DNA of 64,000 nucleotides. Origin: Candidatus Kerfeldbacteria bacterium (GTDB lineage Bacteria > Patescibacteriota > Patescibacteriia > UBA10025 > JAHIVO01). Under the pieces are notes generated by a model that saw only the letters and a list, made by a program, of their open reading frames with translations, did not search any database and had not been told where the DNA came from. The stretch spans positions 1,169,329-1,233,328 of the forward strand of contig CP181398.1 in the NCBI GenBank assembly GCA_047946875.1, given 5' to 3'. Positions 3,848 through 47,966 of this stretch are shown piece by piece (positions within the stretch are counted from its first letter, which is position 1; each line of letters opens with the position of its first letter). The position numbers and the translations under genes were made by a program.

Positions 3848-3922
3848 AAATAGTAACTTTACGATATAAATTAAATATGATAAACTATTTTAAAACCAAA
3901 GAGTTTTTATAACGGAGGTATT

Positions 3923-18842: not shown

Positions 18843-18919
18843 TGGTGGGACGTAGAGGATTTGAACCTCTGACCGTTTGCTTAAGAGGCAACTGCTCTAC
18901 CAAGCTGAGCTAACGTCCC
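18843..18919 (-). tRNA. tRNA-Lys (CTT), CCA encoded
   Basis: rc: GGGACGT TA GCTC AGCTTGGTA GAGC A GTTGC CTCTTAA GCAAA CGGTC AGAGG TTCAAAT CCTCT ACGTCCC A CCA. Confidence 0.9.
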
Positions 18920-19041
18920 GCGTCGATATAATATTTTTGGTTACGTTTTCAGCTTTCGCTGCTAATTCCACCGCTCATATCATTTCTCCTTTCCTCGCAG
19001 AACGGTATCGTTCAGCTCGGTATTATTTATTATAGGAATGG
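18920..19041 (-). ncRNA. tRNA-proximal structured spacer element, copy L2 (before tRNA-Lys)
   Basis: rc: ...GAACGATACCGTTC..GAGGAAAGGAGAAATGATATGAGCGGTGGAATTAGCAGCGAAAGCTGAAAACGTAACCAAAAATATTATATCGACG then the tRNA. Confidence 0.55.
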
Positions 19042-19202
19042 TACCCTCGAGAGCCCCGCTTTGAGCGGGATCTTCGAGAATCTCCGCCCAAGGCGGATGC
19101 GCCTATGGCGCAGAACCTTAAGTTTAAAAGATTGTTTATCCACGGCTCCCGCCCGCAACGCTAAAGCGTAGCTTTGGCGGGCGTGGTAGAAGGCCGTTGT
19201 TC
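19042..19202 (-). pseudogene. old tRNA-Arg 3' portion (nt 22 to 3' end) broken by about four insertions
   Basis: Matching blocks taccctcgaga / ttcgaga / aacct / atccacgg / tagaaggccgttgttc are separated by GC hairpins (19053-19072, 19080-19113, 19146-19186) and an AT-rich 19-mer (19119-19137). Track ORF 19030-19251 is spurious. Confidence 0.75.
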
Positions 19203-19311
19203 CCCGTCTGCCATCGCCAATACCCTCGAGAGGAATCGAACCTCTATCCACGGCTTAGAAGGCCGTTGTTCTATCCGTTGAACTACAAGGGCAATGGCAA
19301 TGGCGGGCAGG
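19203..19311 (-). mobile_element. 109-bp imperfect-IR-flanked unit carrying a complete tRNA-Arg, nested in the older tRNA-Arg
   Basis: cccgtctgccatcgccaa / tRNA / aatggcaatggcgggcagg. The flanks are imperfect inverted repeats (13 of 18 by my alignment). Confidence 0.45.
19221..19292 (-). tRNA. tRNA-Arg (TCT), no encoded CCA
   Basis: rc: GCCCTTG TA GTTC AACGGATA GAAC A ACGGC CTTCTAA GCCGT GGAT AGAGG TTCGATT CCTCT CGAGGGT A. Two G-U pairs in the acceptor stem. Confidence 0.85.
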
Positions 19312-19362
19312 TATCCGTTGTCAGGCAGAGCCTGATCCGGCTTTGCCGGAAACTACAAGGGC
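19312..19362 (-). pseudogene. old tRNA-Arg 5' portion (nt 1-21) with a 30-nt GC hairpin insertion
   Basis: tatccgttg[tcaggcagagcctgatccggctttgccgga]aactacaagggc. Directly abuts spacer element L3, as intact tRNAs do elsewhere. Confidence 0.75.
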
Positions 19363-19478
19363 GCGTCTAAATAATATTTTTGGTTACGTTTTCAGCTTTC
19401 GCTGCTAACTCCACCATTCATATCATTTCTCCTTTCCCCGCAGAACGGTATCGTTCAGCTCAATGTTATTAAATAATA
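19363..19478 (-). ncRNA. tRNA-proximal structured spacer element, copy L3
   Basis: Near-identical to L2: ...GGGGAAAGGAGAAATGATATGAATGGTGGAGTTAGCAGCGAAAGCTGAAAACGTAACCAAAAATATTATTTAGACGC. Confidence 0.55.
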
Positions 19479-19515
19479 TTTCGAATATTAGCAATAAAAA
19501 CTATTTAAGTCAATG

Positions 19516-20397
19516 CTAATTGCTGGTATATAGTTTGGTTGTGGTAATAAAGTTATGACCAAGTATTGATTGGATAGATTTGATGTCATAGCCCTGTTTT
19601 TTTAAATGAACTGCATATGCTTGGCGGAGTTTTTCGGGAGTAATATTATTACCTAGATTTGTTTTTTTTGAATATTTTTTTATGATTCTTTGGATGGTAC
19701 GTGGAGTTAGTTGATAAGTTTCTTTTTTAACAGTACTTAGTTGTCTTTTCTTAGCTTTATCATGCCTAATAAATAATGCATTAAATTTATCATTTCTTAT
19801 TTTTAGATATTCATGGACTGCATAACTAGCTTGATTTGATAAATTTAGAGAACGAGATTTTTTCTTACGTAAAATATTGATTGAGTTTGTACTGAAGTTT
19901 ATGTTTTCTTTTTTTAATGAAGCAAGCTCTGATACTTTGAGACCAGAGCATAACAGGAGTTCTAAGATTGCTTTGTCTCTTTTTTGGATAATCCCAGGAT
20001 TTTTTTCATGCAAGGGAGAAGATAATAGTAGATCGATATCTGATTCTTCGAGTGGTTTATAATGTTTTTTTATTTGCTTTTTAAGAACAATTTCCTTGAA
20101 TGGCAATGAATGAATATTTTTCTTCTTTAAATATTCCAAAAAGGATCTTAGGGCTATTAAATGATAGTTTTGTGTATTTATTTTTAATAACTCTTTTTTT
20201 TGATTACGTATAGTGCTTAAGTAGTTTTTGAATAAATCAATTTTTTCTTTGGTAATATCTGAAGCTTGCCTAATGTTGGATTGATTAAAAAAACGGTGAA
20301 GGTAGAAACTATAGTTATTTACAGTTTGTTTCGTAGTTTTTTTCTTTTGCTGAAGATATTCTAAGAAATTATTTAAATTTTTATTAATGTCATTCAT
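19516..20397 (-). CDS. tyrosine recombinase (XerC/D / phage-integrase family), divergent active-site residues
   Basis: SAM-like N-domain. Box I CSGLKVSEL (Lys where Arg is usual). Box II EKLRQAYAVHL...LGH...TKLYTS (Arg, His and Tyr recognisable; other His positions substituted). Confidence 0.8.
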   Translation of the reverse strand: MNDINKNLNNFLEYLQQKKKTTKQTVNNYSFYLHRFFNQSNIRQASDITKEKIDLFKNYLSTIRNQKKELLKINTQNYHLIALRSFLEYLKKKNIHSLPFKEIVLKKQIKKHYKPLEESDIDLLLSSPLHEKNPGIIQKRDKAILELLLCSGLKVSELASLKKENINFSTNSINILRKKKSRSLNLSNQASYAVHEYLKIRNDKFNALFIRHDKAKKRQLSTVKKETYQLTPRTIQRIIKKYSKKTNLGNNITPEKLRQAYAVHLKKQGYDIKSIQSILGHNFITTTKLYTSN

Positions 20398-20879: not shown

Positions 20880-21003
20880 ATAACAGTAATGAAGAACTTA
20901 TTGAGAGAATTAATCATTTTCTTAATGATTGATCAAATTTCAGCCATTGTGTTTTTACGCGATGGCTTTTTTATTATATTGAAATGCATTTTTTGGCTAA
21001 TCC

Positions 21004-21118
21004 TTGACAAATTATTAATAATACCTATAATAAGTATACTAATTAAATAGCTTACGAATTCTTGGTATTTGGAGTAGTTGACCATTAACTCAGAATTCGC
21101 GAATAAAGGAATAAAACT
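21004..21118 (+). promoter_or_regulatory. rpsO promoter and structured leader (candidate S15 autoregulatory site)
   Basis: TTGACA 21004-21009, 16-nt spacer, TATAAT 21026-21031. Leader stem CGAATTCT 21055-21062 / AGAATTCG 21092-21099 just before the RBS. Confidence 0.55.
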
Positions 21119-21385: not shown

Positions 21386-21931
21386 ATGATAAATCGTAAC
21401 GATCAGAGAATTGGAGTATTTGTAGATGTTCAGAATCTATATTATTCTGCAAAGAATCTATATGGTCAAAAAGTAAATTTTGGAGAAGTTTTAAAAACCG
21501 TAGTTGGTAATAGAAAGCTAATACGAGCTTTTGCATATGTAGTAAAGGCTCAGAATGTTGATGAGCAGAAATTTTTTGAGGCTTTGGGTAGTCAGGGATT
21601 TGAAGTTAAGATGAAAGAGTTACAAATATTTTTTGGTGGTCATAAAAAAGGTGACTGGGATATTGGGATGGCGATGGACGCTATTCGCCTATCCCCTAAA
21701 CTTGATGCTGTGATTCTGGTAACGGGTGATGGAGATTTTATTCCCTTGGTAGAGTATCTTAGAAATCACGGTCAATATGTAGAAGCTGTGTCATTTGGCG
21801 AATCAACTTCAACACTATTAAAAGCAGAAGTGGATGAGTTTACTGATCTGAGTGCCAAGCGCAATAAATATTTAATGAAAAGTTCAATAAGAAGAAAGAA
21901 AATAATTAATAAGTCGAATCGGCCTGCTTAG
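21386..21931 (+). CDS. NYN-domain (LabA-like, PIN-related) putative ribonuclease
   Basis: RIGVFVDVQNLYYS...DWDIGMAMDA...VTGDGDFIPLV. Start codon abuts the rpsO stop. Confidence 0.85.
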   Translation: MINRNDQRIGVFVDVQNLYYSAKNLYGQKVNFGEVLKTVVGNRKLIRAFAYVVKAQNVDEQKFFEALGSQGFEVKMKELQIFFGGHKKGDWDIGMAMDAIRLSPKLDAVILVTGDGDFIPLVEYLRNHGQYVEAVSFGESTSTLLKAEVDEFTDLSAKRNKYLMKSSIRRKKIINKSNRPA

Positions 21932-22055
21932 ATATTTTTATAATGCTGGGGATTCGTAGACTTCTTGTTTAATAATAAATATTATTAAGAAACAAAAAGT
22001 TTATGAACTGGCAATGAGATATCCAACAAAGGAAGATTCGTTGAAAGGAAAAAAT

Positions 22056-24263
22056 ATGGAAAAAATCCAAAAGTTTACCACTGAAATAGATGGTAAAGAA
22101 TTAATTATCGAGACAGGAAGATATGCCGCTCAAGCTAGTGGTGCCTGCACAGTCCAATATGGCGGGACTGTTGTTTTAGCTACAACTGTAAAAAGTAATA
22201 CTATCAGAGATGGAATAGACTATTTCCCATTAATGGTTGACTACGAAGAGAAATTATATGCAGCTGGAAAAATAAAAGGATCTAGATTTATTAAACGTGA
22301 AGGCCGAGCTTCTGACGAAGCTGTTTTGGCTGGTCGTATGATTGATAGATCATTAAGACCATTGTTTGACCAAACAATTCGTAATGACGTTCAAGTTATT
22401 GCAACCGTTTTGTCTGTAGATATGGAGAATGGCGCAGACGTCGTTGCTTTATTAGCATCGTCAGTTGCATTGTTAATCTCTGATATTCCTTGGGCAGGAC
22501 CTATTGCTGGCGCTCGTGTTGGTAAGGTTGACGGTAAATTAATCTATAACCCTACCTACGAACAGAGAGAAGAAAGTAATCTAGATTTAGTAGTTGTAAA
22601 TTGTGGAGATAAAGTTACTATGCTTGAAGCTGGAGGTAAGCAAGTACCAGAAGAAGAAGTTTTGGAAGCTATTGAATTTTCACAAGATAAAATTTTAAAA
22701 ACTTTAGAATTTATCAATAAGATAAAAAGTAAAGTAGGAAAAGAAAAAGTACAAATCCAACCAGAGGAATTAACTGAAGAGGAAAAAGAAGGAATGGATA
22801 AAGTTGAAAGTAAAGTTAAGGATTTTGTTGGAGATAAAATAAACAAACTTTTTGAAATAAAAGGAAAAGCAGAACAGAAAGAAGCTATCTCACAACTACG
22901 TACTGATTTAGATAAAATGTTGAAAGATGATAATGAAGTAAGCAAAGAAGCTAGAGCAAAAGGAACATCTTTAGTTGAAGGAATGTTTCAAGATGCCGCT
23001 AGAAAATTAGTATTAGAGGATGATAAACGTGTTGATGGTCGTTCTCCAGATGAGATTAGAGAGATATCATGTGAGGTAGGTTTATTACCACGAACACACG
23101 GAAGTGGCTTATTTAATAGGGGTGAAACACAAGTATTGTCAGTAGTAACACTTGGTTCTCCTGGCGATGAACAGATAATGGATACTATGGAAGAGAGTGG
23201 AAAAAAACATTATTTACACCATTATAATTTTCCTGGTTTTTCAGTTGGTGAAGCAAAACCTTTGCGAGGTCCTGGCCGTCGTGATATTGGTCATGGTGCT
23301 TTAGCTGAAAAAGCATTGGAGCCAGTTTTACCTTCTAGAGAAGATTTTCCATATACTATTAGAGTAGTATCAGAAGTTATGTCTTCCAATGGTTCTAGTT
23401 CACAAGCTTCAATCTGTGGATCTTCCCTATCATTGATGAACGCTGGTGTACCTATAACTGCTCCAGTCGCTGGTATTGCTATCGGTTTAATTACTGATTA
23501 TGATAATCCAAAAAATTATAAAATATTATCTGATATTCAAGGGGTAGAAGATCATGATGGTGATATGGATTTCAAAGTAGCCGGCACTACTACAGGTATT
23601 ACAGCTATTCAAATGGATGTAAAGTTGGACGGTGTAAGTATAGATATTTTGAAAGATGCTTTTGTATCTGCTAAGAATGCTAGATTAAAAATTCTAGATG
23701 TTATGAAGGCTAAGATTGCAGAACCTAGTAAAGAGATGTCCCCTTACGCTCCTCGCATTACTTCTATCAAGATTGATCCAGAAAAAATCAGAGATGTTAT
23801 TGGTAAAGGTGGTGAAATGATCAATAAAATTATTGATGAGTGCGGTGGTCAAGATGTAACCAAGATTGATATCGATGACGATGGTCTGGTTATGATTACT
23901 TCTACCGACAATGTGCTAGGTAAAAAAGCTATTGAGTGGGTTGAAAATTTAACTCATCAAATTACTGTGGGAGAAGTTTATGAAGGTACGGTTTTAAAAA
24001 TTGTTGCAGATAGAAATAGCGGAACAGAGATTGGTGCTATTGTAGAATTATTACCCGGCCAAGATGGTATGGTTCATATTTCTCAATTTACTGCTGAGCG
24101 TATTGCTAAAGTATCTGATATAGTTAAAGAAGGTCAGAAACTGAAAGTAAAAGTAATGGGCGTAGATAAAGAAAGAGGAAGAATAGAATTATCTCATAAA
24201 ATTTTTAACGAGCCGACTGGTGCAACTAAGGGTAAAGATGATCGTCCACGACGTACCCGCTAA
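22056..24263 (+). CDS. pnp: polyribonucleotide nucleotidyltransferase (PNPase)
   Basis: ORF track 22014-24263. MEKIQKF start at 22056 preferred. Two RNase PH domains, KH and S1 domains. Confidence 0.95.
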   Translation: MEKIQKFTTEIDGKELIIETGRYAAQASGACTVQYGGTVVLATTVKSNTIRDGIDYFPLMVDYEEKLYAAGKIKGSRFIKREGRASDEAVLAGRMIDRSLRPLFDQTIRNDVQVIATVLSVDMENGADVVALLASSVALLISDIPWAGPIAGARVGKVDGKLIYNPTYEQREESNLDLVVVNCGDKVTMLEAGGKQVPEEEVLEAIEFSQDKILKTLEFINKIKSKVGKEKVQIQPEELTEEEKEGMDKVESKVKDFVGDKINKLFEIKGKAEQKEAISQLRTDLDKMLKDDNEVSKEARAKGTSLVEGMFQDAARKLVLEDDKRVDGRSPDEIREISCEVGLLPRTHGSGLFNRGETQVLSVVTLGSPGDEQIMDTMEESGKKHYLHHYNFPGFSVGEAKPLRGPGRRDIGHGALAEKALEPVLPSREDFPYTIRVVSEVMSSNGSSSQASICGSSLSLMNAGVPITAPVAGIAIGLITDYDNPKNYKILSDIQGVEDHDGDMDFKVAGTTTGITAIQMDVKLDGVSIDILKDAFVSAKNARLKILDVMKAKIAEPSKEMSPYAPRITSIKIDPEKIRDVIGKGGEMINKIIDECGGQDVTKIDIDDDGLVMITSTDNVLGKKAIEWVENLTHQITVGEVYEGTVLKIVADRNSGTEIGAIVELLPGQDGMVHISQFTAERIAKVSDIVKEGQKLKVKVMGVDKERGRIELSHKIFNEPTGATKGKDDRPRRTR

Positions 24264-24289: not shown

Positions 24290-24856
24290 ATGATAATAAG
24301 TCTTAGTGGCAAGCCAGGATCAGGAAAAAGTACCGTAGCTAGAAAATTAGCTGCGGATCTTGGTTATGAGAGAATATATATTGGTGGTATGCGTCGAGAA
24401 GTTGCCAGAAAGAAAGGGATGACTTTAGCAGAGTTTAATAAGTGGGGAGAAGAAGGTAATGATGCTGACGCAGAGTTTGAGAGGTATGTTGAAGAACTTG
24501 GTAAGACAAAAGATAATTTCATTATTGAAAGTCGAACAGCTTTTCATTTCATTCCTCGCTCTTTAAAAATATTTATAGATGTTAGTCCAGAAGAAGGAGC
24601 AAAAAGAATTTGGGGGGCTATCGAAAAAAATAGTCAGCCTAACCGCAATGAAGATAGTAATCTACAAAGTCACGAAGATGTTTTACAAAGTATTAAGGAA
24701 AGAATGAAGAGTGATGATTTTCGATATAAGAAGTATTATGATATCGATATTTTTGAAGAGAAAAATTACGATTTATTTTTAGATACAACAAATTTGAATC
24801 CAGAAGAAGAATATCAAGCAGTTTATGATTTTGTAAAAGAGAAATTAGTGAAATAA
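24290..24856 (+). CDS. cytidylate kinase-like (archaeal-type CMP kinase) P-loop NMP kinase
   Basis: P-loop GKPGSGKST. Overall similarity to short (d)CMP kinases. Confidence 0.75.
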   Translation: MIISLSGKPGSGKSTVARKLAADLGYERIYIGGMRREVARKKGMTLAEFNKWGEEGNDADAEFERYVEELGKTKDNFIIESRTAFHFIPRSLKIFIDVSPEEGAKRIWGAIEKNSQPNRNEDSNLQSHEDVLQSIKERMKSDDFRYKKYYDIDIFEEKNYDLFLDTTNLNPEEEYQAVYDFVKEKLVK

Positions 24857-25001: not shown

Positions 25002-25256
25002 TTACTCGCTTGTAGCTTTCGTATTGGAATTTTTTTCAAGCCACTCGACGATTGCACTCTCTGGTATTCGCCAGTCCTTACCTAGTTTGTAAGCTCGGAT
25101 TTCACCTCGTTGAACCTTGCGGGTGATGACCTGGACATTCATTTGAAGTCTACCGGCCAATTCTTTTGTCGTGAAAAACGTCTCTGCTGAGAAAGTTAAA
25201 GTGCTCACAATTTTTCCCTTCCATATTCTTCCAGTTAGCAAGTGAATTTGCTTCAT
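25002..25256 (-). CDS. excisionase-family / MerR-like helix-turn-helix DNA-binding protein
   Basis: TTKELAGRLQMNVQVITRKVQRGEIRAYKLGKDWRIPESAIVEWL. The true start may be an internal GTG. Higher GC than its surroundings. Confidence 0.7.
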   Translation of the reverse strand: MKQIHLLTGRIWKGKIVSTLTFSAETFFTTKELAGRLQMNVQVITRKVQRGEIRAYKLGKDWRIPESAIVEWLEKNSNTKATSE

Positions 25257-25685
25257 CCGTGATCAGTTAAACGGGTGTTAAAAAAGTGATTATCTCCTTT
25301 AAAGTACAATTCTCCTCCTCAAATAAGTATCATGATTAGATATTATAATACCTTAATACAATAGATATTTTCTGTCAATAAATTCATCACTAATTTTGAA
25401 TAAAGATATAATTATGTAGTTAACTAATCGTAACAAAATGATTTTTATTATCTAGTTAATTGTTAACACCTCCATAGGAGGTGTTATTGATAGGAATTAA
25501 CAGGAATTAACCCTTTATGGTTTTATTTAATAGCCTAAAGGTTGAATTCCTAAAAAAGTAAGTATATTTGCCTGTGGATAACTAAAATGGCATAATAATG
25601 GGCATTGTTGGAATTTTATAATTATTGCTAACTTTAGCATATATTTACTATTGACAAGAGGCTAAATACGTGCTATACTGTTTTT

Positions 25686-26079
25686 ATAAGGTATATTAAC
25701 ATTTTATCAACAGCAGGGAGTGATTTACTCTTAAATAAGGTTATTTAAGGCTAAATCGTTCTTTACTGCTAAATGGAGTGACTGGTACTCCGACTTCATT
25801 CTCTTGACGCGAGAGATATACGAAGTAATTTTGAAAAAATAATCAAAATAAAAAGGAAATATCCTAAATAATAAAATATTTGAGATGTTACCACGAAGTG
25901 GTGAAGAATTTAAAAGATTGCTTTTTGATCGCCAGTAACAAAAAGCTTAAAGATTATTCTTATAAATAATCTTGGCGCCTACCTATTTTATTAGGTGGAC
26001 ACCAGGTAATAGAATAATCCTAGGGTGGTTGACGCTCAATAAGTAATCTTTTAGGAGCGGTCAGACCGCCCTTTTTTTT
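25686..26079 (+). ncRNA. ~390-nt untranslated transcript unit / cis-regulatory leader upstream of rnhB
   Basis: Near-consensus promoter: TTGACA 25651-25656, 17-nt spacer, TGcTATACT 25671-25679. Several nested hairpins. Terminator 26054-26071 plus T8 at 26072-26079. An alternative pairing of 26030-26037 with 26055-26063 competes with the terminator. No convincing ORF. Confidence 0.5.
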
Positions 26080-26105
26080 ACAGAAATTTCTTCTATACTA
26101 TAGTT

Positions 26106-26714
26106 ATGGAATATCCAACAAAAAGAGAAGAGAATAAATTATTTAAACAGGGATATAAATATGTTGCTGGTATTGATGAAGCAGGGCGTGGTGCCTGGGC
26201 TGGTCCTTTGGTTGCTGCAGCAGTAATATTACCCAAAGATTTTAAACTGAAAGGTTTAAATGATTCTAAGAAATTATCCGCAAAACAACGAGATGATTTT
26301 TTTACAATTATTACTAAAAATGCACTTGCCTATTATGCCTGCATAATACCATCGAAAGAAATTGATAAAGGTGGAGTTGGTAAAGCGAACTTGTTAGCTA
26401 TAAAAAAAAGCGCTGAAGGATTGAAGATTAAACCTGATTATATATTAATCGATAGTTTTAAGGTTACTTGGAATGATATCCCTGCAAAATCTATTACTAA
26501 AGGTGATACCAAAGTGATAGCTATTGCAGCAGCTTCAGTAATTGCCAAAGTTACGAGGGATCGTATTATGGTACAATATCATAATAAATTTCCTAAGTAC
26601 GGATTTGATAAGCACAAGGGATATGGTACCAAAGAACATCATAATAATTTGAAGAGTTACGGCATAACCCCAATACATAGACAATCTTACCAACCAATTA
26701 AAGAATTAATGTAA
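26106..26714 (+). CDS. rnhB: ribonuclease HII
   Basis: GIDEAGRGAWAGPLVAAAV and the rest of the RNase HII pattern. Confidence 0.95.
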   Translation: MEYPTKREENKLFKQGYKYVAGIDEAGRGAWAGPLVAAAVILPKDFKLKGLNDSKKLSAKQRDDFFTIITKNALAYYACIIPSKEIDKGGVGKANLLAIKKSAEGLKIKPDYILIDSFKVTWNDIPAKSITKGDTKVIAIAAASVIAKVTRDRIMVQYHNKFPKYGFDKHKGYGTKEHHNNLKSYGITPIHRQSYQPIKELM

Positions 26715-26761
26715 AAACCTAGTAAATTAGCAGTTATTTTAATATATGATATAATATAACC

Positions 26762-27322
26762 ATGAATCATAAGCAGCCAGCTGGCCATACATTTTTACAC
26801 CCAGAGAATATTCTAAAAGAAATAGGATTGTCTATTGGTGAAACAATAGCTGATTTTGGTTGTGGTGGTGGTTATTTTGTAATTCCAGCCGCAAAAATAA
26901 TTGGTGACGATGGTGTAGCTTATGGTGTTGATGTATTAAAAAATGCATTATCTTCATTGGATGTTAAATCGCGAATGTTTGGGCTAACCAATGTTAAACC
27001 TGTTTGGGCAAACGTAGAGATTTTTGGAGCTTCTCGTGGTATACATGACAATATATTGGATATGGTTTTTTTGGTTCAGATAATGTCTCAATCAAAAAAA
27101 AGAAGAGAAATTTTCAAAGAGGTTGATAGAGTCTTAAAGCATAATGGTGGTAAGATTATGGTTATCGATTGGAAAAGTGATAAATTAAGCTTTAGTCCTA
27201 ATCCAGCTTCGATGACAAAACCTGAAGAAATTAAAGAAATAGCTAAGTCGTTCGGATTAATTTTAGAAAAAGAATTTGAACCAAGTGATTATCATTTTGG
27301 TTTATTGTTAAAGCGAGCGTAA
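26762..27322 (+). CDS. class I SAM-dependent methyltransferase
   Basis: Motif I DFGCGGGYF. Confidence 0.8.
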   Translation: MNHKQPAGHTFLHPENILKEIGLSIGETIADFGCGGGYFVIPAAKIIGDDGVAYGVDVLKNALSSLDVKSRMFGLTNVKPVWANVEIFGASRGIHDNILDMVFLVQIMSQSKKRREIFKEVDRVLKHNGGKIMVIDWKSDKLSFSPNPASMTKPEEIKEIAKSFGLILEKEFEPSDYHFGLLLKRA

Positions 27323-27354: not shown

Positions 27355-27735
27355 ATGAATAAGGGATTTTTTATTATGAATAATAACAAAAGCTTAGGTA
27401 ATTGGGGGGAGGATTTAGCCGTAAAATATTTATTACAAAAAAGTTATATAATAATGTATAGACATTGGCAAAAAAGAGAAGGTGAAATTGATATTGTTGC
27501 TTATGATAAAAATGATAGATATTTAGTTTTTGTAGAGGTTAAAACTAGAATAAGTTCTCAATTTGGTTCACCAGAAGAATCGCTAAGTTATAAAAAGAAA
27601 CAAAGCCTAGGTAATATCATTATGTTTTATTTACAGGAAGCTGGATATAAAAATAGATATAGATTTGATCTGATTACAATCAAAAAAACTGATCATGTTA
27701 AGATAACTCATTATAAAAATTTATCCTTAGAATAA
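27355..27735 (+). CDS. YraN-family (UPF0102) endonuclease-like protein
   Basis: GEDLAVKYL...GEIDIVA...VFVEVKTR. Confidence 0.85.
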   Translation: MNKGFFIMNNNKSLGNWGEDLAVKYLLQKSYIIMYRHWQKREGEIDIVAYDKNDRYLVFVEVKTRISSQFGSPEESLSYKKKQSLGNIIMFYLQEAGYKNRYRFDLITIKKTDHVKITHYKNLSLE

Positions 27736-27826: not shown

Positions 27827-29224
27827 ATGGCAAAAGAAAATGAGATAGTATTAGCAGTTAAGCAAATTTGTGAAGAAAAAAATATATCATTTGAATCAGT
27901 CATCGAAACAATTGAAGCTGCGTTGGCAGTGGCTTATCGTAAGGATTTTGGTGAAAAAAATCAAAATATTAAAGTTGAATTTGATATTGAAACTGCCGAT
28001 GCTAGTGTTTTTGATGTAAAAAAGGTAGTGACAGATGAAATATTTGAAGTATATGAAAAATTAAGAGAAGAAAAATTAGCAGAAGAAGCTAAAGAGGCTG
28101 CTGATGCTGAAAAAGGAATTGTTAAAAAGGAAAAAAAACCTACTAAAGTAGAAAAAAAAGAGGAAATAGATGATGAGGAAGAAGTAGAGAGATTTAATCC
28201 AAAAACTGATATTTCTTTATCAGAGGCCAAAAAAATTAAGAAAAGTATAAAGTTAGAGGGGGAAATCAAAACCGCTCTTACACCACCAGCTGCATATGGA
28301 AGAATGGCCGCTCAAACTGCTAAGCAAGTAATTGTTCAACGTTTACGTGAAGCAGAACGTGAGAATATTTATAAAGAGTTTAAAGATAAAGAAGGTGACG
28401 TAATAAACGGGACTATCCAGAGGGTAGAAGGAAGAATGGTGTTGGTTGATCTCGGTCCGACTACGGCATTATTACCTCCTCCAGAGCAAGTACCAATGGA
28501 AAGATATAATTCTGGTCAAAGATTTAAATTTTATGTAGTTGCAGTTAATGAGACTCCAAAAGGTCCAGAGATAATTTTGTCTAGATCTCATGTTGAAATG
28601 GTAAAAAAATTATTTATGTTGGAAGTACCAGAAATTGGTAACGGTTCAGTAGAAATAAAATCTATTGCAAGAGAAGCAGGCTCTCGTACTAAGTTGGCTG
28701 TTTTTACAACTCAGAAAAATATCGATCCAGTTGGTTCATGTGTTGGTCAACGTGGTGCAAGAGTACAAACTATAATTTCTGAGATTGGTGGGGAGAAAAT
28801 TGATATTGTTGAGTGGGATGAAGATCCTGTTAAATTTATTACAAATTCTCTATCCCCAGCTAAAGTATTAGGTGTTAATACAAATGAAGAAGAAAAAACT
28901 GCCAAAGTAGAAGTAAAAGAAGATCAATTATCTTTGGCTATTGGTAAAGCGGGTCAGAATGTAAGATTGTCTGCCAAATTGACTGGTTGGAAGATTGACA
29001 TAATTTCAGAAGCTGGTATACCGGCCATACCAAAGGAAGAATTAGATGATAAAGATGAAGATATTGAAAGTGAAGAAGAGATTGAAAAAAAAGAGGAGCC
29101 AAAAGATCTTGCAGCAAGCCTGCCTACCGGACAGGCAAGTTCAGAAGAAGTAAAAGAGGAAGAGAAGAAGGATGTTAAGGAAGAAGAGGTTGTAGAAGAA
29201 AAAAAGGAGGATAAAGAAAAATAA
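27827..29224 (+). CDS. nusA: transcription termination/antitermination factor NusA with acidic C-terminal tail
   Basis: S1 and tandem KH domains. E/K-rich insert and tail. Confidence 0.95.
   Translation: MAKENEIVLAVKQICEEKNISFESVIETIEAALAVAYRKDFGEKNQNIKVEFDIETADASVFDVKKVVTDEIFEVYEKLREEKLAEEAKEAADAEKGIVKKEKKPTKVEKKEEIDDEEEVERFNPKTDISLSEAKKIKKSIKLEGEIKTALTPPAAYGRMAAQTAKQVIVQRLREAERENIYKEFKDKEGDVINGTIQRVEGRMVLVDLGPTTALLPPPEQVPMERYNSGQRFKFYVVAVNETPKGPEIILSRSHVEMVKKLFMLEVPEIGNGSVEIKSIAREAGSRTKLAVFTTQKNIDPVGSCVGQRGARVQTIISEIGGEKIDIVEWDEDPVKFITNSLSPAKVLGVNTNEEEKTAKVEVKEDQLSLAIGKAGQNVRLSAKLTGWKIDIISEAGIPAIPKEELDDKDEDIESEEEIEKKEEPKDLAASLPTGQASSEEVKEEEKKDVKEEEVVEEKKEDKEK
29118..29136. repeat. GC-hairpin element (family cctgcctaccggcaggcagg) in frame inside the nusA tail
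   Basis: gcctgcctaccggacaggc encodes SLPTGQA within an otherwise E/K-rich tail. Related copies at 11171-11190, 48521-40 and 6084-6104. Confidence 0.6.
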
Positions 29225-29305: not shown

Positions 29306-31300
29306 ATGTCTACACCAATTATCATTGCGTTGGGATCAGCAGTAGTAGCTATTATTTATGGTGTGCTATTGAGCCGTTGGATTTTTAAATTACCTGCAGG
29401 TGATGAAAAGATGCAATCAATTGCAAAAGCAATTCAGGAGGGGGCAAAAGCTTATTTAAACAGACAAACAAAGACGGTTTCATTTATCGCTGTATTTGTT
29501 TTTTTGTTGTTAGGAATGTTAATAGATTGGACAACTGCAGCAGGATTTTTAGTAGGTGCATCTCTTTCAGCAATAGCAGGTTATATTGGTATGAATGTTT
29601 CGGTTAGAGCTAATGTTCGTACAGCAGAAGCTGCAAAAGAAAGTATGGCCAAAGCATTAAGTGTTTCATCAAAGGGTGGAGCAGTAACTGGTTTGTTAGT
29701 AGTTGGCCTTGGTTTATTAGGAGTCGCTGGGTTTTATGCTATCACTGGTGAGGTAAAACCGTTGATTGGTCTTGGTTTCGGTGGTAGTTTAATATCTATT
29801 TTTGCTAGATTAGGTGGTGGTATCTATACAAAAGCTGCTGATGTAGGAGCAGATTTAGTAGGTAAAGTTGAATCAAACATTCCTGAGGACGATCCTCGTA
29901 ATCCAGCTGTTATAGCGGATAATGTTGGTGATAATGTTGGTGATTGTGCTGGTATGGCAGCTGATTTGTATGAGACTTATGCTGTTACAGCTGTAGCGGT
30001 TATGTTATTAGCGCATTTAATATTTCCTGGTTTTGAGAATGCTTTAATGCTTCCTTTAATGATTGGCGCTCTAGCTATTATTAGTTCTGTTATTGGAGTC
30101 CTATTTATCAAATTGGGTAAAAATAAGAGTATTATGGGAGCTCTTTATAAAGGAATGATAGTAGCGGCGGTTTTATCTGCAGCTTCATTTTATCCAATCA
30201 CTAATTGGTTAATGGAGGGTAATGGAGTATATAGTATTAATAATTTATATTTAGCTTCTTTGGTTGGACTAGTAGTCACCGCTTTGATAGTAGTTATTAC
30301 AGAATATTATACCTCTACAAAATATGCTCCAGTCAGATCTATTGCAAAAAGTTCTGAGACTGGACATGGCACTAATGTAATTACTGGGTTAGCAGTTAGT
30401 ATGAAATCAACTGCCTTACCTGTATTAGTAATAGCTGGTGGTATTTTAGCTTCATATGCATTAGCTGATGTTTTTGGTGTAGCAATTGCAGCTATGAGTA
30501 TGCTTTCTTTGGCCGGTATTATTGTGACTATTGATTCTTATGGACCAATTACAGATAATGCAGGTGGTATTGCTGAGATGGCCAAATTACCAGAAGAAGT
30601 AAGAAAAACCACTGATGCTTTAGACGCTGTTGGGAATACAACTAAAGCTGTAACTAAAGGTTACGCTATTGGTTCAGCTGGACTTGCTGCTATAGTATTA
30701 TTTGCTTTTTATGTTCAAGAATTAGCTGATGCCGGTCAGGCTATCGTATTTATGTTAGATGATCCAAAAGTATTAGTCGGATTATTTATAGGTGGTTTAC
30801 TGCCGTATTTCTTTGGCGCACAAGCAATGCAAGCGGTTGGTAAAGTAGCTGGTTATGTTGTCGAAGAAGTAAGAAGACAGTTTAAAGAAAAACCAGGTAT
30901 TATGCAGGGTACTGAAAAACCAGACTACGCTAAAACAGTTGATATTGTAACTAAGGGAGCTATTAAGGAAATGGTTGTACCTGCCTTATTGCCAGTAGCT
31001 GCACCTATATTAGTTGGAGTTATCTTAGGTCCAGTTGCTTTAGGTGGTTTGTTAGTTGGCAGTATTATTACTGGAATATTTGTTGCTTTATCTATGACTA
31101 CTGGTGGTGCTGCATGGGATAATGCAAAGAAATATATTGAAGAAGGAAATCATGGCGGTAAAGGATCAATAGCGCATCAAGCAGCTGTCACTGGAGATAC
31201 AGTTGGTGATCCTTACAAAGATACTGCTGGTCCTGCTATCAATCCAATGATTAAGATTATCAATATTGTCGCATTGTTGATAATTGGATTAATTATTTAA
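29306..31300 (+). CDS. hppA: membrane-bound proton-translocating pyrophosphatase
   Basis: [28 protein letters not shown], multi-TM, 664 aa. Confidence 0.95.
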
Positions 31301-45432: not shown

Positions 45433-45516
45433 TGCCGCGGGTGGGACTTGAACCCACAAGGTCTTGCAACCACTGGATTTTAAGTCCAGCGCGTATACCA
45501 GTTCCGCCACCGCGGC
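45433..45516 (-). tRNA. tRNA-Leu (TAA), long variable arm, no encoded CCA
   Basis: rc: GCCGCGG...CTGGA CTTAAAA TCCAG...GGGTTCAAGTCCC...CCGCGGC A. Starts directly after the trmH-like stop codon. Confidence 0.9.
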
Positions 45517-45975
45517 CTATTTGTTTATAATGTTAAAGACAGTAATACCTAGAGCGACTGATACATTGAGAGATTCTTTTTTTCCATGCATTGGTATGTC
45601 AATTATAGTATGACAATTTTTTAGTATAGAGCTATCTAATCCCTTTACTTCATTGCCAACTACTAAGGCAATTGGATACTTTGGTTTTAATTTTGTATAA
45701 TCAATACTTTTTTTTGATTGTTCTAAGGCAATTATTTGAAATCCTTGCTTTGCCAGTTTTTTTAATAAATGATTCGTTTGAGTAATTTTTTCAAAAGGAA
45801 TATTTTTTTCTGCTCCTAAAGCTACTTTGTCTATTTTTGGATGTGGAGGAGCAGGAGTTATTCCAGTAAGGAATATTTTATCAATACCAGCAGCGTCAGC
45901 TGTACGAAATATCGATCCAACGTTGAATCGACTCCTGATATTTGGAAGGATTAAATAAAATATTTTATTATTCAT
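45517..45975 (-). CDS. TrmH/SpoU-family RNA 2'-O-methyltransferase
   Basis: SpoU motifs (NVGSIFRTA, LVVGNE..GL, IPMHG...SLNVSVA). Confidence 0.85.
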   Translation of the reverse strand: MNNKIFYLILPNIRSRFNVGSIFRTADAAGIDKIFLTGITPAPPHPKIDKVALGAEKNIPFEKITQTNHLLKKLAKQGFQIIALEQSKKSIDYTKLKPKYPIALVVGNEVKGLDSSILKNCHTIIDIPMHGKKESLNVSVALGITVFNIINK

Positions 45976-45989
45976 CTGTTGAATGTAAA

Positions 45990-46001
45990 TGGAGCGGCAA
46001 A
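45990..46001 (-). repeat. 12-nt duplicate of the tRNA-Gly(GCC) 3' end next to a GC hairpin
   Basis: tggagcggcaaa is identical to 46083-46094. Followed by ttccgctgagcgggat. Confidence 0.4.
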
Positions 46002-46082
46002 TTCCGCTGAGCGGGATGAGCTTTTAGTATTAAGTGAGATTAATTAATAATCTTAGAATAAAATTTATAAGTTAATTTGTAA

Positions 46083-46159
46083 TGGAGCGGCAAACCGGAC
46101 TCGAACCGGCGACCTTTTCCTTGGCAAGGAAACGCTCTAGCCAACTGAGCTACTGCCGC
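46083..46159 (-). tRNA. tRNA-Gly (GCC), CCA encoded
   Basis: rc: GCGGCAG TA GCTC AGTTGGCTA GAGC G TTTCC TTGCCAA GGAAA AGGTC GCCGG TTCGAGT CCGGT TTGCCGC T CCA. Confidence 0.9.
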
Positions 46160-46273
46160 GCGTCGAAATAGTTTTTCTGGCTCCGTTTCCAATCAAGATT
46201 GAAAACTGCACCATTTACACTATTTCTCCTTCTCCTCGTCCCGAACTGCGGGACTCGGTAAAGATTAATTTAG
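46160..46273 (-). ncRNA. tRNA-proximal structured spacer element, copy L4 (fills the tRNA-Cys to tRNA-Gly gap)
   Basis: rc: ..GTCCCGCAGTTCGGGAC GAGGAGAAGGA GAAATAGT GTAAAT GGTGCAGTTTTCAATCTTGATTGGAAACGGAGCC AGAAAA ACTATTTC GACGC. Confidence 0.6.
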
Positions 46274-46348
<75 letters not shown>

Positions 46349-47950: not shown

Positions 47951-47966
47951 ATTTTAATTAACATTG

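What the first reader, a model, noticed from the sequence alone, without database searches (positions are those of the whole stretch)
25651..26105. Near-consensus promoter driving a ~390-nt non-coding unit with terminator/antiterminator alternatives just upstream of rnhB
TTGACA-17 nt-TGcTATACT (25651-25679) is the best promoter in the window. Yet no credible ORF follows for ~420 nt; the longest ATG ORF is 17 codons and has no SD. The transcript contains several nested hairpins: GGAGT..ACTCC at 25775-25791; ACTTC[CTCT..AGAG]GAAGT at 25793-25826; CTTGGCGCCTACCT..AGGTGGACACCAGG at 25971-26006. It ends in a terminator (26054-26071 plus T8) only 27 nt before the rnhB ATG. The segment TGACGCTC (26030-26037), preceded by GGGTGGT, can pair with GAGCGGTCA (26055-26063), which is the 5' arm of the terminator. 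A mutually exclusive antiterminator is therefore possible. Either this is an abundant stand-alone RNA of unknown class, or it is a long attenuator/riboswitch-like leader controlling rnhB, the methyltransferase, yraN and possibly nusA. I know of no regulatory RNA described for that gene set.
Basis: partly seen in the sequence, partly recalled or inferred. Interest (0 to 1): 0.6.

Follow-up and report, generated by a model that had tools for sequence, protein, structure and literature searches.

The report
Orphan pseudoknotted RNA gene beside rnhB
The stretch upstream of rnhB is a separate gene for a roughly 390-nucleotide folded RNA, conserved in one clade of ultra-small (Patescibacteria) bacteria and matching no described RNA family; it is not an on/off leader for rnhB.

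Summary
A near-consensus promoter (25651-25679) is followed by about 394 nt with no conserved ORF and then a strong intrinsic terminator (U-run 26072-26079). I found the same unit in 16 loci of one Kerfeldbacteria-like Patescibacteria clade, always between a small kinase gene and rnhB.

The fold is strongly supported. Of 86 proposed pairs, 92.5% of cells pair, against 81% after shuffling and 39-52% when the register is slid. 49 pairs show compensatory changes. Two long-range pairings covary:
- A 6-bp loop-loop contact (25781-25786 with 25931-25936) is intact in all 16 members, in five sequence versions.
- A linker (25911-25919) pairs with the terminator loop (26045-26053).

The proposed antiterminator is not an alternative structure. 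That pairing is the upper half of one long terminator hairpin, so both the long and the short forms abut the U-run.

Other points against a leader role: rnhB has a conserved -10 box 6 nt before its ATG, and the spacer to rnhB varies from 26 to about 200 nt.

Rfam 15 and ARAGORN give no match. A perfect DnaA box and a palindrome are conserved upstream of the promoter.

Best reading: a stand-alone, trans-acting structured RNA of a new family. Its function is unknown. Expression is inferred, not shown.

The parts
25573..25581 (-). Perfect DnaA box. It reads TGTGGATAA on the + strand (TTATCCACA on the - strand), about 78 nt upstream of the -35 hexamer.
   Evidence: It is the only perfect 9-mer in the 64-kb window. 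A perfect copy lies 49-82 nt upstream of the -35 in 14 of the 15 loci where the -35 could be placed; the fifteenth has one mismatch. The surrounding DNA is not conserved. DnaA binding is inferred, not tested.
25627..25638 (.). Palindrome GCTAACTTTAGC, 12 nt upstream of the -35 hexamer. Candidate operator or activator site.
   Evidence: The (G)CTAAnnTTAGC pattern, sometimes with a single mismatch, is conserved in most relatives (alignments A1 and A3). It occurs 3 times in the window, where I estimate about 0.07 by chance.
25651..25679 (+). Sigma-70-type promoter: TTGACA, 17 nt, then extended -10 TGcTATACT.
   Evidence: 11/12 plus TG. TTGACA and TGnTATACT are invariant in 15 of 16 members while the spacer sequence varies. 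Ranks second in the window.
25686..26079 (+). The RNA gene. The predicted transcript is about 394 nt in the window and about 350-430 nt across family members.
   Evidence: nhmmer E-values run from 1e-52 to 1e-108 in 15 other distinct loci. Its DNA identity to close relatives is higher than that of rnhB. G-U cells outnumber A-C cells 126 to 37, so the + strand is the RNA strand. The transcription start is inferred as 7 nt after the -10.
25704..25712 (+). Conserved 5' single-stranded motif TTATCAACA, one mismatch from a DnaA box, at about +19 of the RNA.
   Evidence: A copy with at most one mismatch sits at the same offset (52-53 nt after the start of the -35) in 13 of 15 loci and is a perfect TTATCCACA in L007 and L010. 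Whether it acts as DNA or as RNA is unknown.
25712..25769 (+). P1, a long composite hairpin (25712-25734 paired with 25745-25769).
   Evidence: 23 pairs, 17 with changes on both sides, 89% of cells paired (helix 1).
25775..25791 (+). P2 hairpin GGAGU/ACUCC. Its loop carries ACUGGU (25781-25786), the 5' strand of long-range pairing PK1.
   Evidence: The stem exists in all 16 members with eight different sequences, including GGAGU, GGAGA, GGACU, GGGCC, GAACC and GGAUC.
25793..25826 (+). P3, a variable hairpin with a UUGACGC loop.
   Evidence: Present in most members with different lengths. Absent in L014, L041 and L049. Not scored column by column because of alignment gaps.
25828..25849 (+). P4, a small A/U hairpin (AUUUUGA/UCAAAAU), followed by an A-rich linker with consensus AAACAAAACAAAAAGG.
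   Evidence: The MFE fold shows it. An equivalent small hairpin can be drawn in relatives. The alignment is ambiguous in this A-rich stretch, so support is weak.
25854..25865 (+). P5 hairpin, AGG/CCU.
   Evidence: 96% of cells paired but nearly invariant, so it is uninformative for covariation (helix 3).
25866..25881 (+). P6 hairpin. AAAUA/UAUUU in the window, UAGUC/GACUA in most relatives.
   Evidence: 3 of 5 pairs change on both sides (helix 4).
25890..25902 (+). P7 hairpin ACCAC/GUGGU with a 3-nt loop. Almost invariant in sequence.
   Evidence: 100% of cells paired. The only changes are A-U to G-U in L014 (helix 5).
25911..25919 (+). J7/8 linker UAAAAGAUU, the 5' strand of long-range pairing PK2 with the terminator loop.
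   Evidence: the repeat finder pairs I3 and I23. On construct alignment A6, 81% of cells pair versus 65% shuffled and about 50% slid. 8 of 10 pairs change on both sides and the covariation score is 0.415 versus 0.152. Cognate duplexes are the best or near-best in most clades. The sequence is A/U-rich, so support is moderate.
25920..25946 (+). P8 hairpin GCUUUUUG/CAAAAAGC. Its loop carries GCCAGU (25931-25936), the 3' strand of PK1.
   Evidence: P8 is 96% paired, with only U-A to U-G changes (helix 6). PK1 is 100% paired in the 15-sequence alignment, with 3 of 6 positions covarying (helix 2). It is 6/6 paired in all 16 members, in five versions: ACUGGU/GCCAGU, GUUGGC/GCCAGC, GUUGGC/GCCAAC, GUUGGU/ACCAAC and GCUGAC/GUCAGC.
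25950..26021 (+). The 3' domain. P9 (25950-25960 with 26011-26021) encloses P10 (25971-25984 with 25993-26006), which has an invariant CCUGCC/GGCGGA-type tip containing a U-G pair.
   Evidence: In P9, 7 of 8 scored pairs change on both sides. In P10, 10 of 13 change on both sides and 95% of cells pair (helices 7 and 8). Some relatives carry an extra hairpin inserted at the P10 tip.
26022..26079 (+). P11, the intrinsic terminator: one long hairpin (26022-26037 with 26055-26072), a loop carrying the PK2 3' strand (26045-26053), then the U-run 26072-26079. A shorter hairpin (26057-26069) is an alternative that also abuts the U-run.
   Evidence: One search finds the terminator. The long form appears in the MFE fold. 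15 pairs, 9 with changes on both sides, 93% of cells paired (helix 9). The hairpin and U-run are present in all 16 members.
26094..26108 (+). Candidate promoter of rnhB itself: a -10 hexamer TATACT ending 6 nt before the ATG at 26106. This would give a leaderless or near-leaderless mRNA.
   Evidence: TATA[AC]T lies exactly 6 nt before the ATG in 13 of 16 loci and 8-11 nt before it in the other three, while the flanking spacer is not conserved. The same arrangement precedes the methyltransferase gene at 26750-26764.

Best explanation
The finding is an independent gene for a structured non-coding RNA of about 390 nt.

**Transcription unit (inferred from sequence).** It is transcribed from its own consensus-grade sigma-70 promoter and ended by its own strong intrinsic terminator.

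**Fold (shown by comparative analysis).** The RNA folds into about eleven helices tied together by two long-range pairings:
- PK1 is a 6-bp contact between the loops of P2 and P8.
- PK2 pairs the linker just 5' of P8 with the loop of the terminator hairpin.

Because the terminator hairpin is part of the conserved fold, the terminated RNA itself is most likely the functional product.

**Mode of action (inferred).** It most likely acts in trans as a folded scaffold. It would either bind one or more proteins as an RNP or assemble with copies of itself through the loop-loop contact. It would not act by deciding whether RNA polymerase reads into rnhB.

**Control (inferred).** Its synthesis is probably regulated at the DNA level. 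A perfect DnaA box lies about 115 nt upstream of the start, a second DnaA-box-like site lies at about +19, and a palindrome lies just upstream of the -35. This would tie RNA level to DnaA and the replication state.

The cellular target is unknown.
For: **Conservation as a unit**
- 16 distinct loci carry it.
- The invariant -35 and extended -10 and the terminator bracket the conserved block.
- DNA upstream of the promoter is only about 50-70% identical, against 92% for the RNA in the closest relative.

**Structure**
- The fold energy has z = -7.1 against shuffles.
- RNAalifold predicts 65 pairs, 43 of them with compensatory changes.
- The manual model has 86 pairs: 92.5% of cells paired versus 81.2% shuffled and 39-52% slid, 49 pairs with double changes, and 0 of 500 shuffles reaching any observed measure.
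- PK1 is intact in 16 of 16 members, in five sequence versions.
- PK2 is supported on alignment A6.

**Strand.** G-U cells outnumber A-C cells 126 to 37.

**Not coding.** No ORF is conserved.

**Not a switch**
- The long and short 3' hairpins both abut the U-run.
- The spacer to rnhB is 26 to about 200 nt and unconserved, and a -10 sits at a fixed 6 nt before the ATG in 13 of 16 loci.
- The rnhB-methyltransferase-yraN cluster in Kuenenbacteria has no such element.

**Not a known family.** Rfam 15 is negative at gathering score and at E-value 1-10 on the window and on relatives. ARAGORN finds no tmRNA.

**Promoter-flanking sites.**

**Precedent.** Covarying loop-loop contacts in large orphan RNAs have turned out to be intermolecular (PMC12286853).
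Against: - No transcript data exist. Promoter use, the 5' end, termination efficiency and abundance are all inferred.
- The RNA lies directly upstream of and co-oriented with rnhB in every one of the 16 loci. That is what a cis element would also show, although the whole S15-to-pyrophosphatase gene order is frozen in this clade, so synteny cannot discriminate.
- All members come from one clade, and several are close relatives. Shuffle-based covariation statistics are therefore inflated by shared ancestry.
- PK2 is A/U-rich, imperfect in L012 and L021 and not evident in L063.
- GCUUUUUG (the 5' strand of P8) has a second conserved complementary partner in the terminator loop, CAAnAAGU. Some conformational switching therefore cannot be excluded.
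- No protein partner, target or activity is identified.
Confidence: 0.65

Rival explanations
1. It is a cis-acting leader (attenuator or riboswitch-like) of the rnhB-methyltransferase-yraN-nusA operon. A signal would change the fold and so change termination at 26079.
For: - It lies immediately upstream of and co-oriented with rnhB in all 16 loci.
- Only 26 nt separate the U-run from the ATG in the window.
- Alternative pairings do exist. There is a long and a short 3' hairpin. The 5' strand of P8 can pair either with the 3' strand of P8 or with the 5' half of the terminator loop.
- nusA lies downstream. NusA-dependent autoregulation through leader terminators is known in other bacteria (my own knowledge, not checked here).
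Against: - Every alternative I found keeps a G+C-rich hairpin directly against the U-run, so none is an antiterminator.
- The proposed antiterminator strand covaries as terminator stem (helix 9).
- A weaker candidate, the 3' strand of P10 pairing with the 3' arm of P11, shrinks to 4-5 bp in L007 and L010 (read).
- The spacer to rnhB is unconserved, from 26 to about 200 nt, with a -10 fixed 6 nt before the ATG.
- The Kuenenbacteria rnhB cluster lacks the element.
- No riboswitch, T-box or leader family matches.
- About 350 nt of conserved pseudoknotted structure is far more than an attenuator needs.
Confidence: 0.15
2. It is a highly diverged copy of a known housekeeping RNA of similar size or promoter strength: RNase P RNA, tmRNA, SRP RNA or 6S RNA.
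For: - Its size (about 390 nt), single copy, very strong promoter and pseudoknots fit RNase P RNA or tmRNA in general terms.
- CPR (candidate phyla radiation, i.e. Patescibacteria) RNAs are often divergent.
- None of these four RNAs was detected anywhere in the 64-kb window, so none is shown to be encoded elsewhere.
Against: - No hit to any of these families appears even at E-value 10 with relaxed filters on a 900-nt query, nor at E-value 1 on six relatives.
- ARAGORN finds no tmRNA.
- The covariation model has no helix joining the 5' and 3' ends. RNase P P1, the tmRNA acceptor stem and the 6S closing stem all need one.
- The long-range pairings join hairpin loops, unlike RNase P helix P4.
- There is no CR-I/CR-V-like sequence, no T-arm, no tag reading frame and no SRP domain IV motif (read).
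Confidence: 0.05
3. The conserved feature is mainly a DNA-level, replication-linked element. It would be a DnaA-binding locus, or a transcript that forms an R-loop or primer in the manner of ColE1 RNA II, next to the RNase HII gene.
For: - A perfect DnaA box lies upstream and a near-perfect box at about +19, in inverted orientation around the promoter. Both are conserved across the family.
- The adjacent gene encodes RNase HII.
- ColE1 RNA II is likewise a structured RNA of several hundred nucleotides made from a strong promoter (my own knowledge).
Against: - There are only one or two boxes, and no box cluster.
- Relatives have only about 100-170 bp between the kinase gene and the -35, so there is no room for an origin.
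- There is no GC-skew turn at this position.
- Selection clearly acts on RNA pairing, including G-U pairs specific to one strand.
- A strong terminator releases the transcript.
Confidence: 0.05
4. The region encodes one or more small proteins.
For: - Gene callers placed 31-, 44-, 50- and 73-aa ORFs in the equivalent gap of some relatives.
- This organism rarely uses SD sequences, so the lack of an SD is not evidence against translation.
Against: - The longest ORFs differ in position, frame, strand and start codon between members, and most start with TTG.
- The longest ATG ORF in the window is 17 codons.
- The substitutions are compensatory for base pairing rather than codon-periodic.
Confidence: 0.02

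Closest known systems
Large 'ornate' orphan bacterial ncRNAs (OLE, ROOL, GOLLD, raiA-motif RNA)
   Same: - It is a stand-alone structured RNA of several hundred nucleotides with many helices.
- It has strongly conserved loops and linkers, and long-range loop pairings detected by covariation.
- Its biochemical function is unknown.
- Its phylogenetic range is restricted.
- In ROOL and GOLLD, such covarying kissing loops proved to be contacts between RNA copies (PMC12286853).
- The raiA motif RNA also sits next to a particular gene yet is regarded as a separate RNA (my own knowledge).
   Different: - It has no sequence or structure match to any of these families in Rfam 15.
- It is smaller than OLE, ROOL and GOLLD.
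- It is found in Patescibacteria rather than Firmicutes or phages.
- It has DnaA-box and palindrome sites around its promoter.
- Self-assembly is untested.
Transcription attenuators and riboswitch expression platforms, including T-box leaders
   Same: It lies upstream of and co-oriented with an operon, ends in an intrinsic terminator, and in the window contains a GGGUGGU string that recalls the T-box sequence.
   Different: - No mutually exclusive antiterminator exists.
- GGGUGGU is not conserved and covaries as a stem strand.
- No aptamer family matches.
- The downstream genes are not of the kind T-boxes control.
- rnhB appears to have its own promoter.
6S RNA
   Same: It is a non-coding RNA made from one of the strongest promoters in the genome and released by a terminator. 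The 3' domain (P9/P10) is an irregular hairpin with an internal loop.
   Different: - It lacks a rod-like overall shape, a closing stem joining the 5' and 3' ends, and a large central bubble.
- It is twice the usual size.
- It has two pseudoknot-type contacts.
- It gives no Rfam 6S hit.
RNase P RNA and tmRNA
   Same: It has a similar length, pseudoknots, a single copy and a housekeeping-grade promoter.
   Different: - It lacks a terminal P1 or acceptor stem, conserved-region motifs, a tRNA-like domain and a tag ORF.
- Infernal and ARAGORN are both negative.
ColE1 RNA II (structured replication primer)
   Same: It is a structured RNA of several hundred nucleotides from a strong promoter. The locus is linked to replication factors here through the DnaA boxes and the neighbouring RNase H gene.
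   Different: It is chromosomal, it ends at an efficient terminator, there is no origin-like DNA downstream, and there is no antisense RNA I equivalent.

Membership tests
Sigma-70 promoter | -35 and -10 hexamers at 16-18 nt spacing, optionally with a TG extension | tested here: met
   TTGACA, 17 nt, TGcTATACT. Both elements are invariant in 15 of 16 members while the spacer varies.
Sigma-70 promoter | Transcription actually starts there | not testable with these tools
   No transcriptome data were available. The start at about 25686 is inferred.
Intrinsic (factor-independent) terminator | G+C-rich hairpin immediately followed by a U-run | tested here: met
   The long form is a 15-16-bp stem followed by U8. 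It is present in all 16 members.
Attenuator / riboswitch expression platform | A conserved alternative pairing that excludes the terminator hairpin | tested here: not met
   The proposed competitor strand is part of the same hairpin (helix 9). The long and short forms both abut the U-run. Other candidate competitors are not conserved.
Attenuator / riboswitch expression platform | A recognisable ligand-binding (aptamer) domain | tested here: not met
   No riboswitch or leader family appears at E-value 10 or below on the window, or at 1 or below on relatives.
Attenuator / riboswitch expression platform | Read-through that responds to a signal | not testable with these tools
   This needs Term-seq or in vitro transcription.
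T-box leader | A conserved T-box sequence with a UGGN bulge in an antiterminator, plus Stem I with a specifier loop | tested here: not met
   GGGUGGU appears as GGGGCGG, AGGAGCA or GGGCGCU in relatives and covaries with the 3' arm. There is no RF00230 hit.
6S RNA | Closing stem joining the 5' and 3' ends, with a large central bubble | tested here: not met
   The covariation model contains only local hairpins plus PK1 and PK2. There is no Rfam 6S hit.
RNase P RNA | P1 and P4 helices with conserved regions CR-I to CR-V | tested here: not met
   No RNase P family hit at E-value 10 or below. The long-range pairings join hairpin loops.
tmRNA | tRNA-like domain and a tag reading frame | tested here: not met
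   ARAGORN finds none in the window, and Rfam finds none.
SRP RNA | Domain IV (helix 8) motif | tested here: not met
   No SRP family hit.
OLE / ROOL / GOLLD / raiA-motif RNAs | Match to the family's covariance model | tested here: not met
   No hit in Rfam 15. I am assuming from memory that these families are in Rfam 15. The resemblance is one of kind only.
OLE / ROOL / GOLLD / raiA-motif RNAs | Homo-oligomeric assembly through loop contacts | not testable with these tools
   PK1 covaries, but covariation cannot tell a contact within one molecule from a contact between two.
DnaA-regulated promoter | A consensus TTATCCACA box conserved near the promoter | tested here: met
DnaA-regulated promoter | DnaA binds and changes transcription | not testable with these tools
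   This needs footprinting, EMSA or reporter assays.

The most novel reading that the evidence does not exclude
This would be a new class of large, pseudoknotted bacterial RNA confined to a clade of ultra-small Patescibacteria.
- The terminator hairpin is part of its tertiary fold.
- The covarying loop-loop contact builds either a compact catalytic or protein-binding core, or an RNA-only multimer of the ROOL/GOLLD kind.
- Its production is gated by DnaA, which would make it the first structured RNA tied directly to the replication-initiation state of the cell.
Probability: 0.3. Interest if true: 0.8.

Novelty: categorically new. Interest (0 to 1): 0.66.

Why it matters
- Genomes of about 1 Mb in the candidate phyla radiation (CPR, Patescibacteria) have shed most regulators. 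Yet this clade keeps a 0.4-kb non-coding gene under one of its strongest promoters, and in close relatives it is conserved better than the neighbouring enzyme gene.
- New large structured RNAs are rare. Past examples (RNase P, OLE, ROOL, GOLLD) turned out to be ribozymes, RNP cores or self-assembling cages.
- This one comes with a well-defined covariation-supported fold and two testable long-range contacts. It also has an unusual candidate input, DnaA boxes around its promoter.
- It is therefore directly usable for structure work and for asking what essential RNA-based functions CPR bacteria retain.
- It also corrects a tempting misreading. A terminator just upstream of a gene, with extra complementarity nearby, is not by itself an attenuator.

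Tried and rejected
1. **Known RNA families.** I ran Rfam 15 at gathering score on the whole window and on 12 related loci. I also ran it at E-value 10 on 25300-26200 and at E-value 1 on six relatives. Only scattered chance hits appeared (miRNA, snoRNA and sRNA models well below threshold), and none recurred between members. ARAGORN found no tmRNA.
2. **T-box idea.** This was prompted by AGGGTGGT. I rejected it because that string is not conserved and covaries as a stem.
3. **Cobalamin riboswitch idea.** This was prompted by GCCUGCC, which resembles the B12 box, and by the kissing loop. I rejected it because there is no Rfam hit and the gene context is unrelated.
4. **Replication origin.** There is only one perfect DnaA box, no box cluster, no skew turn and too little intergenic DNA in relatives.
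5. **Antisense pairing to 16S rRNA.** No complementarity of 9 nt or more was found, which is less than the shuffled controls give.
6. **Repeats, arrays and paralogues.** There are no tandem or array-like repeats and no second copy in the window.
7. **Phage or mobile association.** The family pattern gave no hit in viral contigs.
8. **Collection scans.**
   - The first protein-based scan of species genomes found nothing.
   - A DNA-pattern scan of genomes gave 34 hits, of which 5 were real.
   - The metagenome scan gave 13 hits, of which 6 were real. The remainder were two unrelated conserved sequences.
9. **A 5'-terminal hairpin (P0).** Its register differs between clades, so I left it out of the model.
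10. **An alternative long duplex.** The 5' strand of P8 could pair with the 5' half of the terminator loop. This is less well paired than the local P8 hairpin, with mismatches at two positions in 5 of 15 sequences, so I keep P8 and note a possible switch.
11. **An argument I dropped.** I had considered that read-through transcripts could not be translated because rnhB lacks an SD. Most genes in this organism lack an SD, so the argument fails.
12. **Literature.** Eight full-text searches and two papers found no description of this RNA or of any CPR-specific structured RNA at this locus.
Full report
**What is in the window**

The window comes from a Candidatus Kerfeldbacteria bacterium (Patescibacteria, Parcubacteria group). 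Its RNase HII is 100% identical to an NCBI protein of that name found on a 1.31-Mb contig.

The local genes, all on the + strand unless noted, are as follows:

| Coordinates | Gene |
|---|---|
| about 21.0 kb | rpsO, inferred from its promoter and from synteny with relatives |
| 21386-21931 | NYN-domain gene |
| 22014-24263 | PNPase |
| 24290-24856 | small cytidylate-kinase-like gene |
| 25002-25256 (- strand) | HTH_17 gene |
| 25257-26105 | 850-nt gap |
| 26106-26714 | rnhB |
| 26762-27322 | class I methyltransferase |
| 27355-27735 | yraN |
| 27827-29224 | nusA |
| 29306-31300 | H+-pyrophosphatase |

**Checking the observation**

The following points are confirmed.
- The promoter TTGACA-17-TGcTATACT lies at 25651-25679.
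- No ORF of 30 aa or more follows on the + strand. The longest ATG ORF is 17 codons.
- A hairpin plus U8 ends at 26079, 26 nt before the rnhB ATG.
- The 395-nt unit folds at -114 kcal/mol against -77 +/- 5 for shuffles, z = -7.1.

Three details need correction.
- A 12/12 promoter at 21004 outranks this one.
- Only 7 of 53 ORFs of at least 100 aa in this window have an SD-like sequence, so 'no SD' is uninformative here.
- The 'antiterminator' is not an alternative structure. This is explained below.

**Relatives**

A protein-based scan of species-representative genomes found nothing. I therefore fetched the contigs encoding RNase HII homologues of 50-91% identity.

Every one has the same gene order, with a 500-800-nt gap between the kinase gene and rnhB. 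In some, an extra gene is inserted in that gap.

The gap aligns from the promoter to the terminator. An nhmmer profile then confirmed further members among DNA-pattern hits in genomes and metagenomes, and rejected the chance hits.

In all there are 16 distinct members. They are about 350-430 nt long and all belong to this one clade.

A Kuenenbacteria locus (L062) has rnhB-methyltransferase-yraN but only 63 nt upstream of rnhB, and no trace of the element.

The RNA is conserved at least as well as the neighbouring gene in the closest relatives.

| Relative | RNA identity to window | rnhB DNA identity to window |
|---|---|---|
| L001 | 92% | 87% |
| L002 | 91% | 82% |
| L003 | 73.5% | 67% |

DNA upstream of the promoter falls to background levels (50-70%) apart from two short motifs.

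**Structure**

RNAalifold on the 15-sequence alignment A4 gave 65 pairs, 43 with compensatory changes. It also revealed an unexpected long-range helix.

I built a manual model of 86 pairs and counted it on A4.
- 92.5% of cells pair, against 81.2 +/- 0.6% after shuffling partners and 39-52% when partners are slid by 1-3 columns.
- 49 pairs change on both sides.
- The covariation score is 0.416, against 0.209 shuffled and about 0.1 slid.
- 0 of 500 shuffles reach any observed measure.

The helices, in window coordinates, are listed below.

| Helix | Coordinates | Note |
|---|---|---|
| P1 | 25712-25769 | long composite hairpin |
| P2 | 25775-25791 | loop carries the PK1 5' strand |
| P3 | 25793-25826 | variable; absent in three members |
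| P4 | 25828-25849 | weakly supported |
| P5 | 25854-25865 | nearly invariant |
| P6 | 25866-25881 | |
| P7 | 25890-25902 | nearly invariant |
| P8 | 25920-25946 | loop carries the PK1 3' strand |
| P9 | 25950-25960 with 26011-26021 | encloses P10 |
| P10 | 25971-26006 | |
| P11 | 26022-26037 with 26055-26072 | followed by the U-run to 26079 |

G-U cells outnumber A-C cells 126 to 37. Selection therefore acts on the + strand RNA, not on DNA or on the opposite strand.

**Two long-range pairings**

PK1 joins the P2 loop (25781-25786, ACUGGU) to the P8 loop (25931-25936, GCCAGU).
- All 16 members keep 6 of 6 pairs.
- They do so in five versions: ACUGGU/GCCAGU, GUUGGC/GCCAGC, GUUGGC/GCCAAC, GUUGGU/ACCAAC and GCUGAC/GUCAGC.

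PK2 joins the linker just 5' of P8 (25911-25919, UAAAAGAUU) to the 3' half of the terminator loop (26045-26053, AAUCUUUUA).
- It was first seen as an inverted repeat.
- In relatives the two strands change together. Examples are AUAAUAUAAUU/AAUUAUAUUAU in L013, AAUAAAUU/AAUUUAUU in L052 and GGAAUAUU/AAUAUUUU in L014.
- On a fixed-register construct alignment (A6), 81% of cells pair, against 65% shuffled and about 50% slid. 8 of 10 pairs change on both sides, and the score is 0.415 against 0.152.
- PK2 is A/U-rich, imperfect in L012 and L021 and not evident in L063. I rate it moderately supported.

The neighbouring 5' strand of P8 (GCUUUUUG) could also pair with the 5' half of the same loop (CAAnAAGU). 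That pairing has more mismatches than the local P8 hairpin. I keep P8 and note a possible switch.

**Why it is not a terminator/antiterminator device**

However, GGGUGGU (26023-26029) pairs at the same time with 26064-26071.
- The result is one hairpin of 15-16 bp that still abuts the U-run.
- Its basal strand covaries with the 3' arm (GGGGCGG/CCGCCCC, AGGAGCA/UGCUCCU, GGGCGCU/AGCGCCC), which also removes the resemblance to a T-box.
- The short hairpin (26057-26069) is a second terminator form, not an anti-terminator.

Further points against a leader role:
- The terminator-to-ATG spacer is 26 nt here but up to about 200 nt, and unrelated in sequence, in L008, L012, L013 and L021.
- A -10 hexamer (TATACT or TATAAT) ends exactly 6 nt before the rnhB ATG in 13 of 16 loci. 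The methyltransferase gene has the same arrangement. rnhB therefore probably has its own leaderless-type promoter.
- Because PK2 uses the terminator loop, the terminator hairpin belongs to the conserved fold. That fits a mature, terminated RNA as the functional product.

**Promoter surroundings**

- A perfect DnaA box (TGTGGATAA, 25573-25581) is the only perfect one in 64 kb. A perfect copy lies 49-82 nt upstream of the -35 in 14 of the 15 loci where the -35 could be placed, inside otherwise unconserved DNA.
- A box with at most one mismatch (TTATCAACA, 25704-25712) sits at a fixed offset, about +19 of the RNA, in 13 of 15 loci.
- A palindrome, GCTAAnnTTAGC (25627-25638), is conserved 12 nt upstream of the -35. 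It occurs three times in the window, where I estimate about 0.07 by chance.
- These motifs point to regulated transcription, possibly by DnaA. They do not make an origin. There is no box cluster, no skew turn, and too little room in relatives.

**Comparison with known RNAs**

- Rfam 15 (4227 families) gives nothing at gathering score on the window or on 108 kb of related loci. At E-value 10 on the region and at E-value 1 on six relatives it gives only unrelated sub-threshold chance hits that differ between members.
- ARAGORN finds no tmRNA.
- The fold lacks a helix joining the 5' and 3' ends, which RNase P RNA, tmRNA and 6S RNA all need.
- No ORF is conserved.
- The RNA has no 9-nt or longer complementarity to the 16S rRNA in the window.
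- It has no second copy in the window and no viral copies.
- Eight literature searches and two papers found no description of it.
- The closest things in kind are the large orphan 'ornate' RNAs. In ROOL and GOLLD, covarying kissing loops turned out to be contacts between RNA copies (PMC12286853). PK1 could likewise be a contact within one molecule or between two.

**Verdict**

- Shown: a conserved, strand-specific, pseudoknotted RNA fold, bracketed by a conserved consensus promoter and a conserved terminator. It matches no described family, and no conserved antiterminator alternative was found.
- Inferred: that it is transcribed as a discrete abundant RNA, that it acts in trans as a protein-binding or self-assembling scaffold, and that DnaA controls it.
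- Unknown: its target and activity.

The main caveats are three. No expression data exist. All members come from one clade with frozen gene order, so position next to rnhB cannot separate a cis role from a trans role, and shared ancestry inflates shuffle statistics. P3, P4 and PK2 have only moderate support.

Noticed in passing
window 25573-25581 and 25704-25712; equivalent sites in L001-L063: A perfect DnaA box lies about 78 nt upstream of the -35, and a near-perfect box in the opposite orientation lies at about +19 of the RNA. Both are conserved across the family inside otherwise variable DNA. This suggests DnaA control of a non-coding RNA gene.
   Followed up: partly
window 25627-25638, 47010-47021, 59713-59724: The palindrome GCTAAnnTTAGC occurs three times in 64 kb, where I estimate about 0.07 by chance. 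One copy is 12 nt upstream of the RNA's -35. One is 22 nt before the ATG of an unannotated 170-aa ORF (46475-46987, - strand). One is about 175 nt upstream of a pyrB-pyrI fusion gene, near a one-mismatch DnaA box (59849-59857). It may be the operator of an unknown regulator.
   Followed up: partly
window 26094-26108 and 26750-26764: Both rnhB and the methyltransferase gene have a -10 hexamer ending exactly 6 nt before the ATG. For rnhB this holds in 13 of 16 related loci. This suggests leaderless mRNAs, each with its own promoter.
   Followed up: partly
whole window (53 ORFs of at least 100 aa): Only 7 of 53 likely genes have an SD-like sequence in the 15 nt before the start codon. The upstream regions are A/U-rich instead. 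Translation initiation in this organism seems largely SD-independent.
   Followed up: partly
window 25002-25500: An HTH_17 (excisionase/MerR-like) gene on the - strand is inserted between the kinase gene and the RNA gene in this genome. None of the relatives whose contig spans this interval has it; L003 and L004 have a nucleoside deoxyribosyltransferase-like gene there instead. A perfect 10-bp inverted repeat (25464-25473 with 25477-25486) lies in the same insertion. It may be a remnant of a small mobile element.
   Followed up: no
window 45433-50698 (- strand): The 16S rRNA gene (49208-50698) is followed by tRNA-Ile, Phe, Pro and further tRNAs interspersed with ORFs. No 23S or 5S rRNA lies in the window, so the rRNA genes appear to be unlinked.
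   Followed up: no
window 21004-21031: The only 12/12 consensus promoter in the window (TTGACA-16-TATAAT) lies just after a terminator-like hairpin (20942-20967). It sits upstream of the rpsO-NYN-pnp-kinase gene row.
   Followed up: no
window 58059-59540 (- strand): Aspartate carbamoyltransferase catalytic and regulatory chains are fused in one 493-aa ORF (PyrB-PyrI). It follows a non-coding region of about 590 nt and has one of the few strong SD sequences in the window.
   Followed up: no
L013 about 3886-4000 and L021 about 2270-2455: Some relatives carry an extra G+C-rich insert of roughly 100-190 nt between the RNA's terminator and rnhB. The inserts in L013 and L021 share a 3' block (AGGATTCGGGATGATTC[AG]GAATTTGATATATA) that runs into the rnhB -10. 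This may be a second small element.
   Followed up: no
window 18843-20397: A tyrosine recombinase (phage-integrase family, XerC/D-like, 19516-20397, - strand) lies next to tRNA-Arg and tRNA-Lys. Gene orientation in the window also switches from - to + at this point.
   Followed up: no
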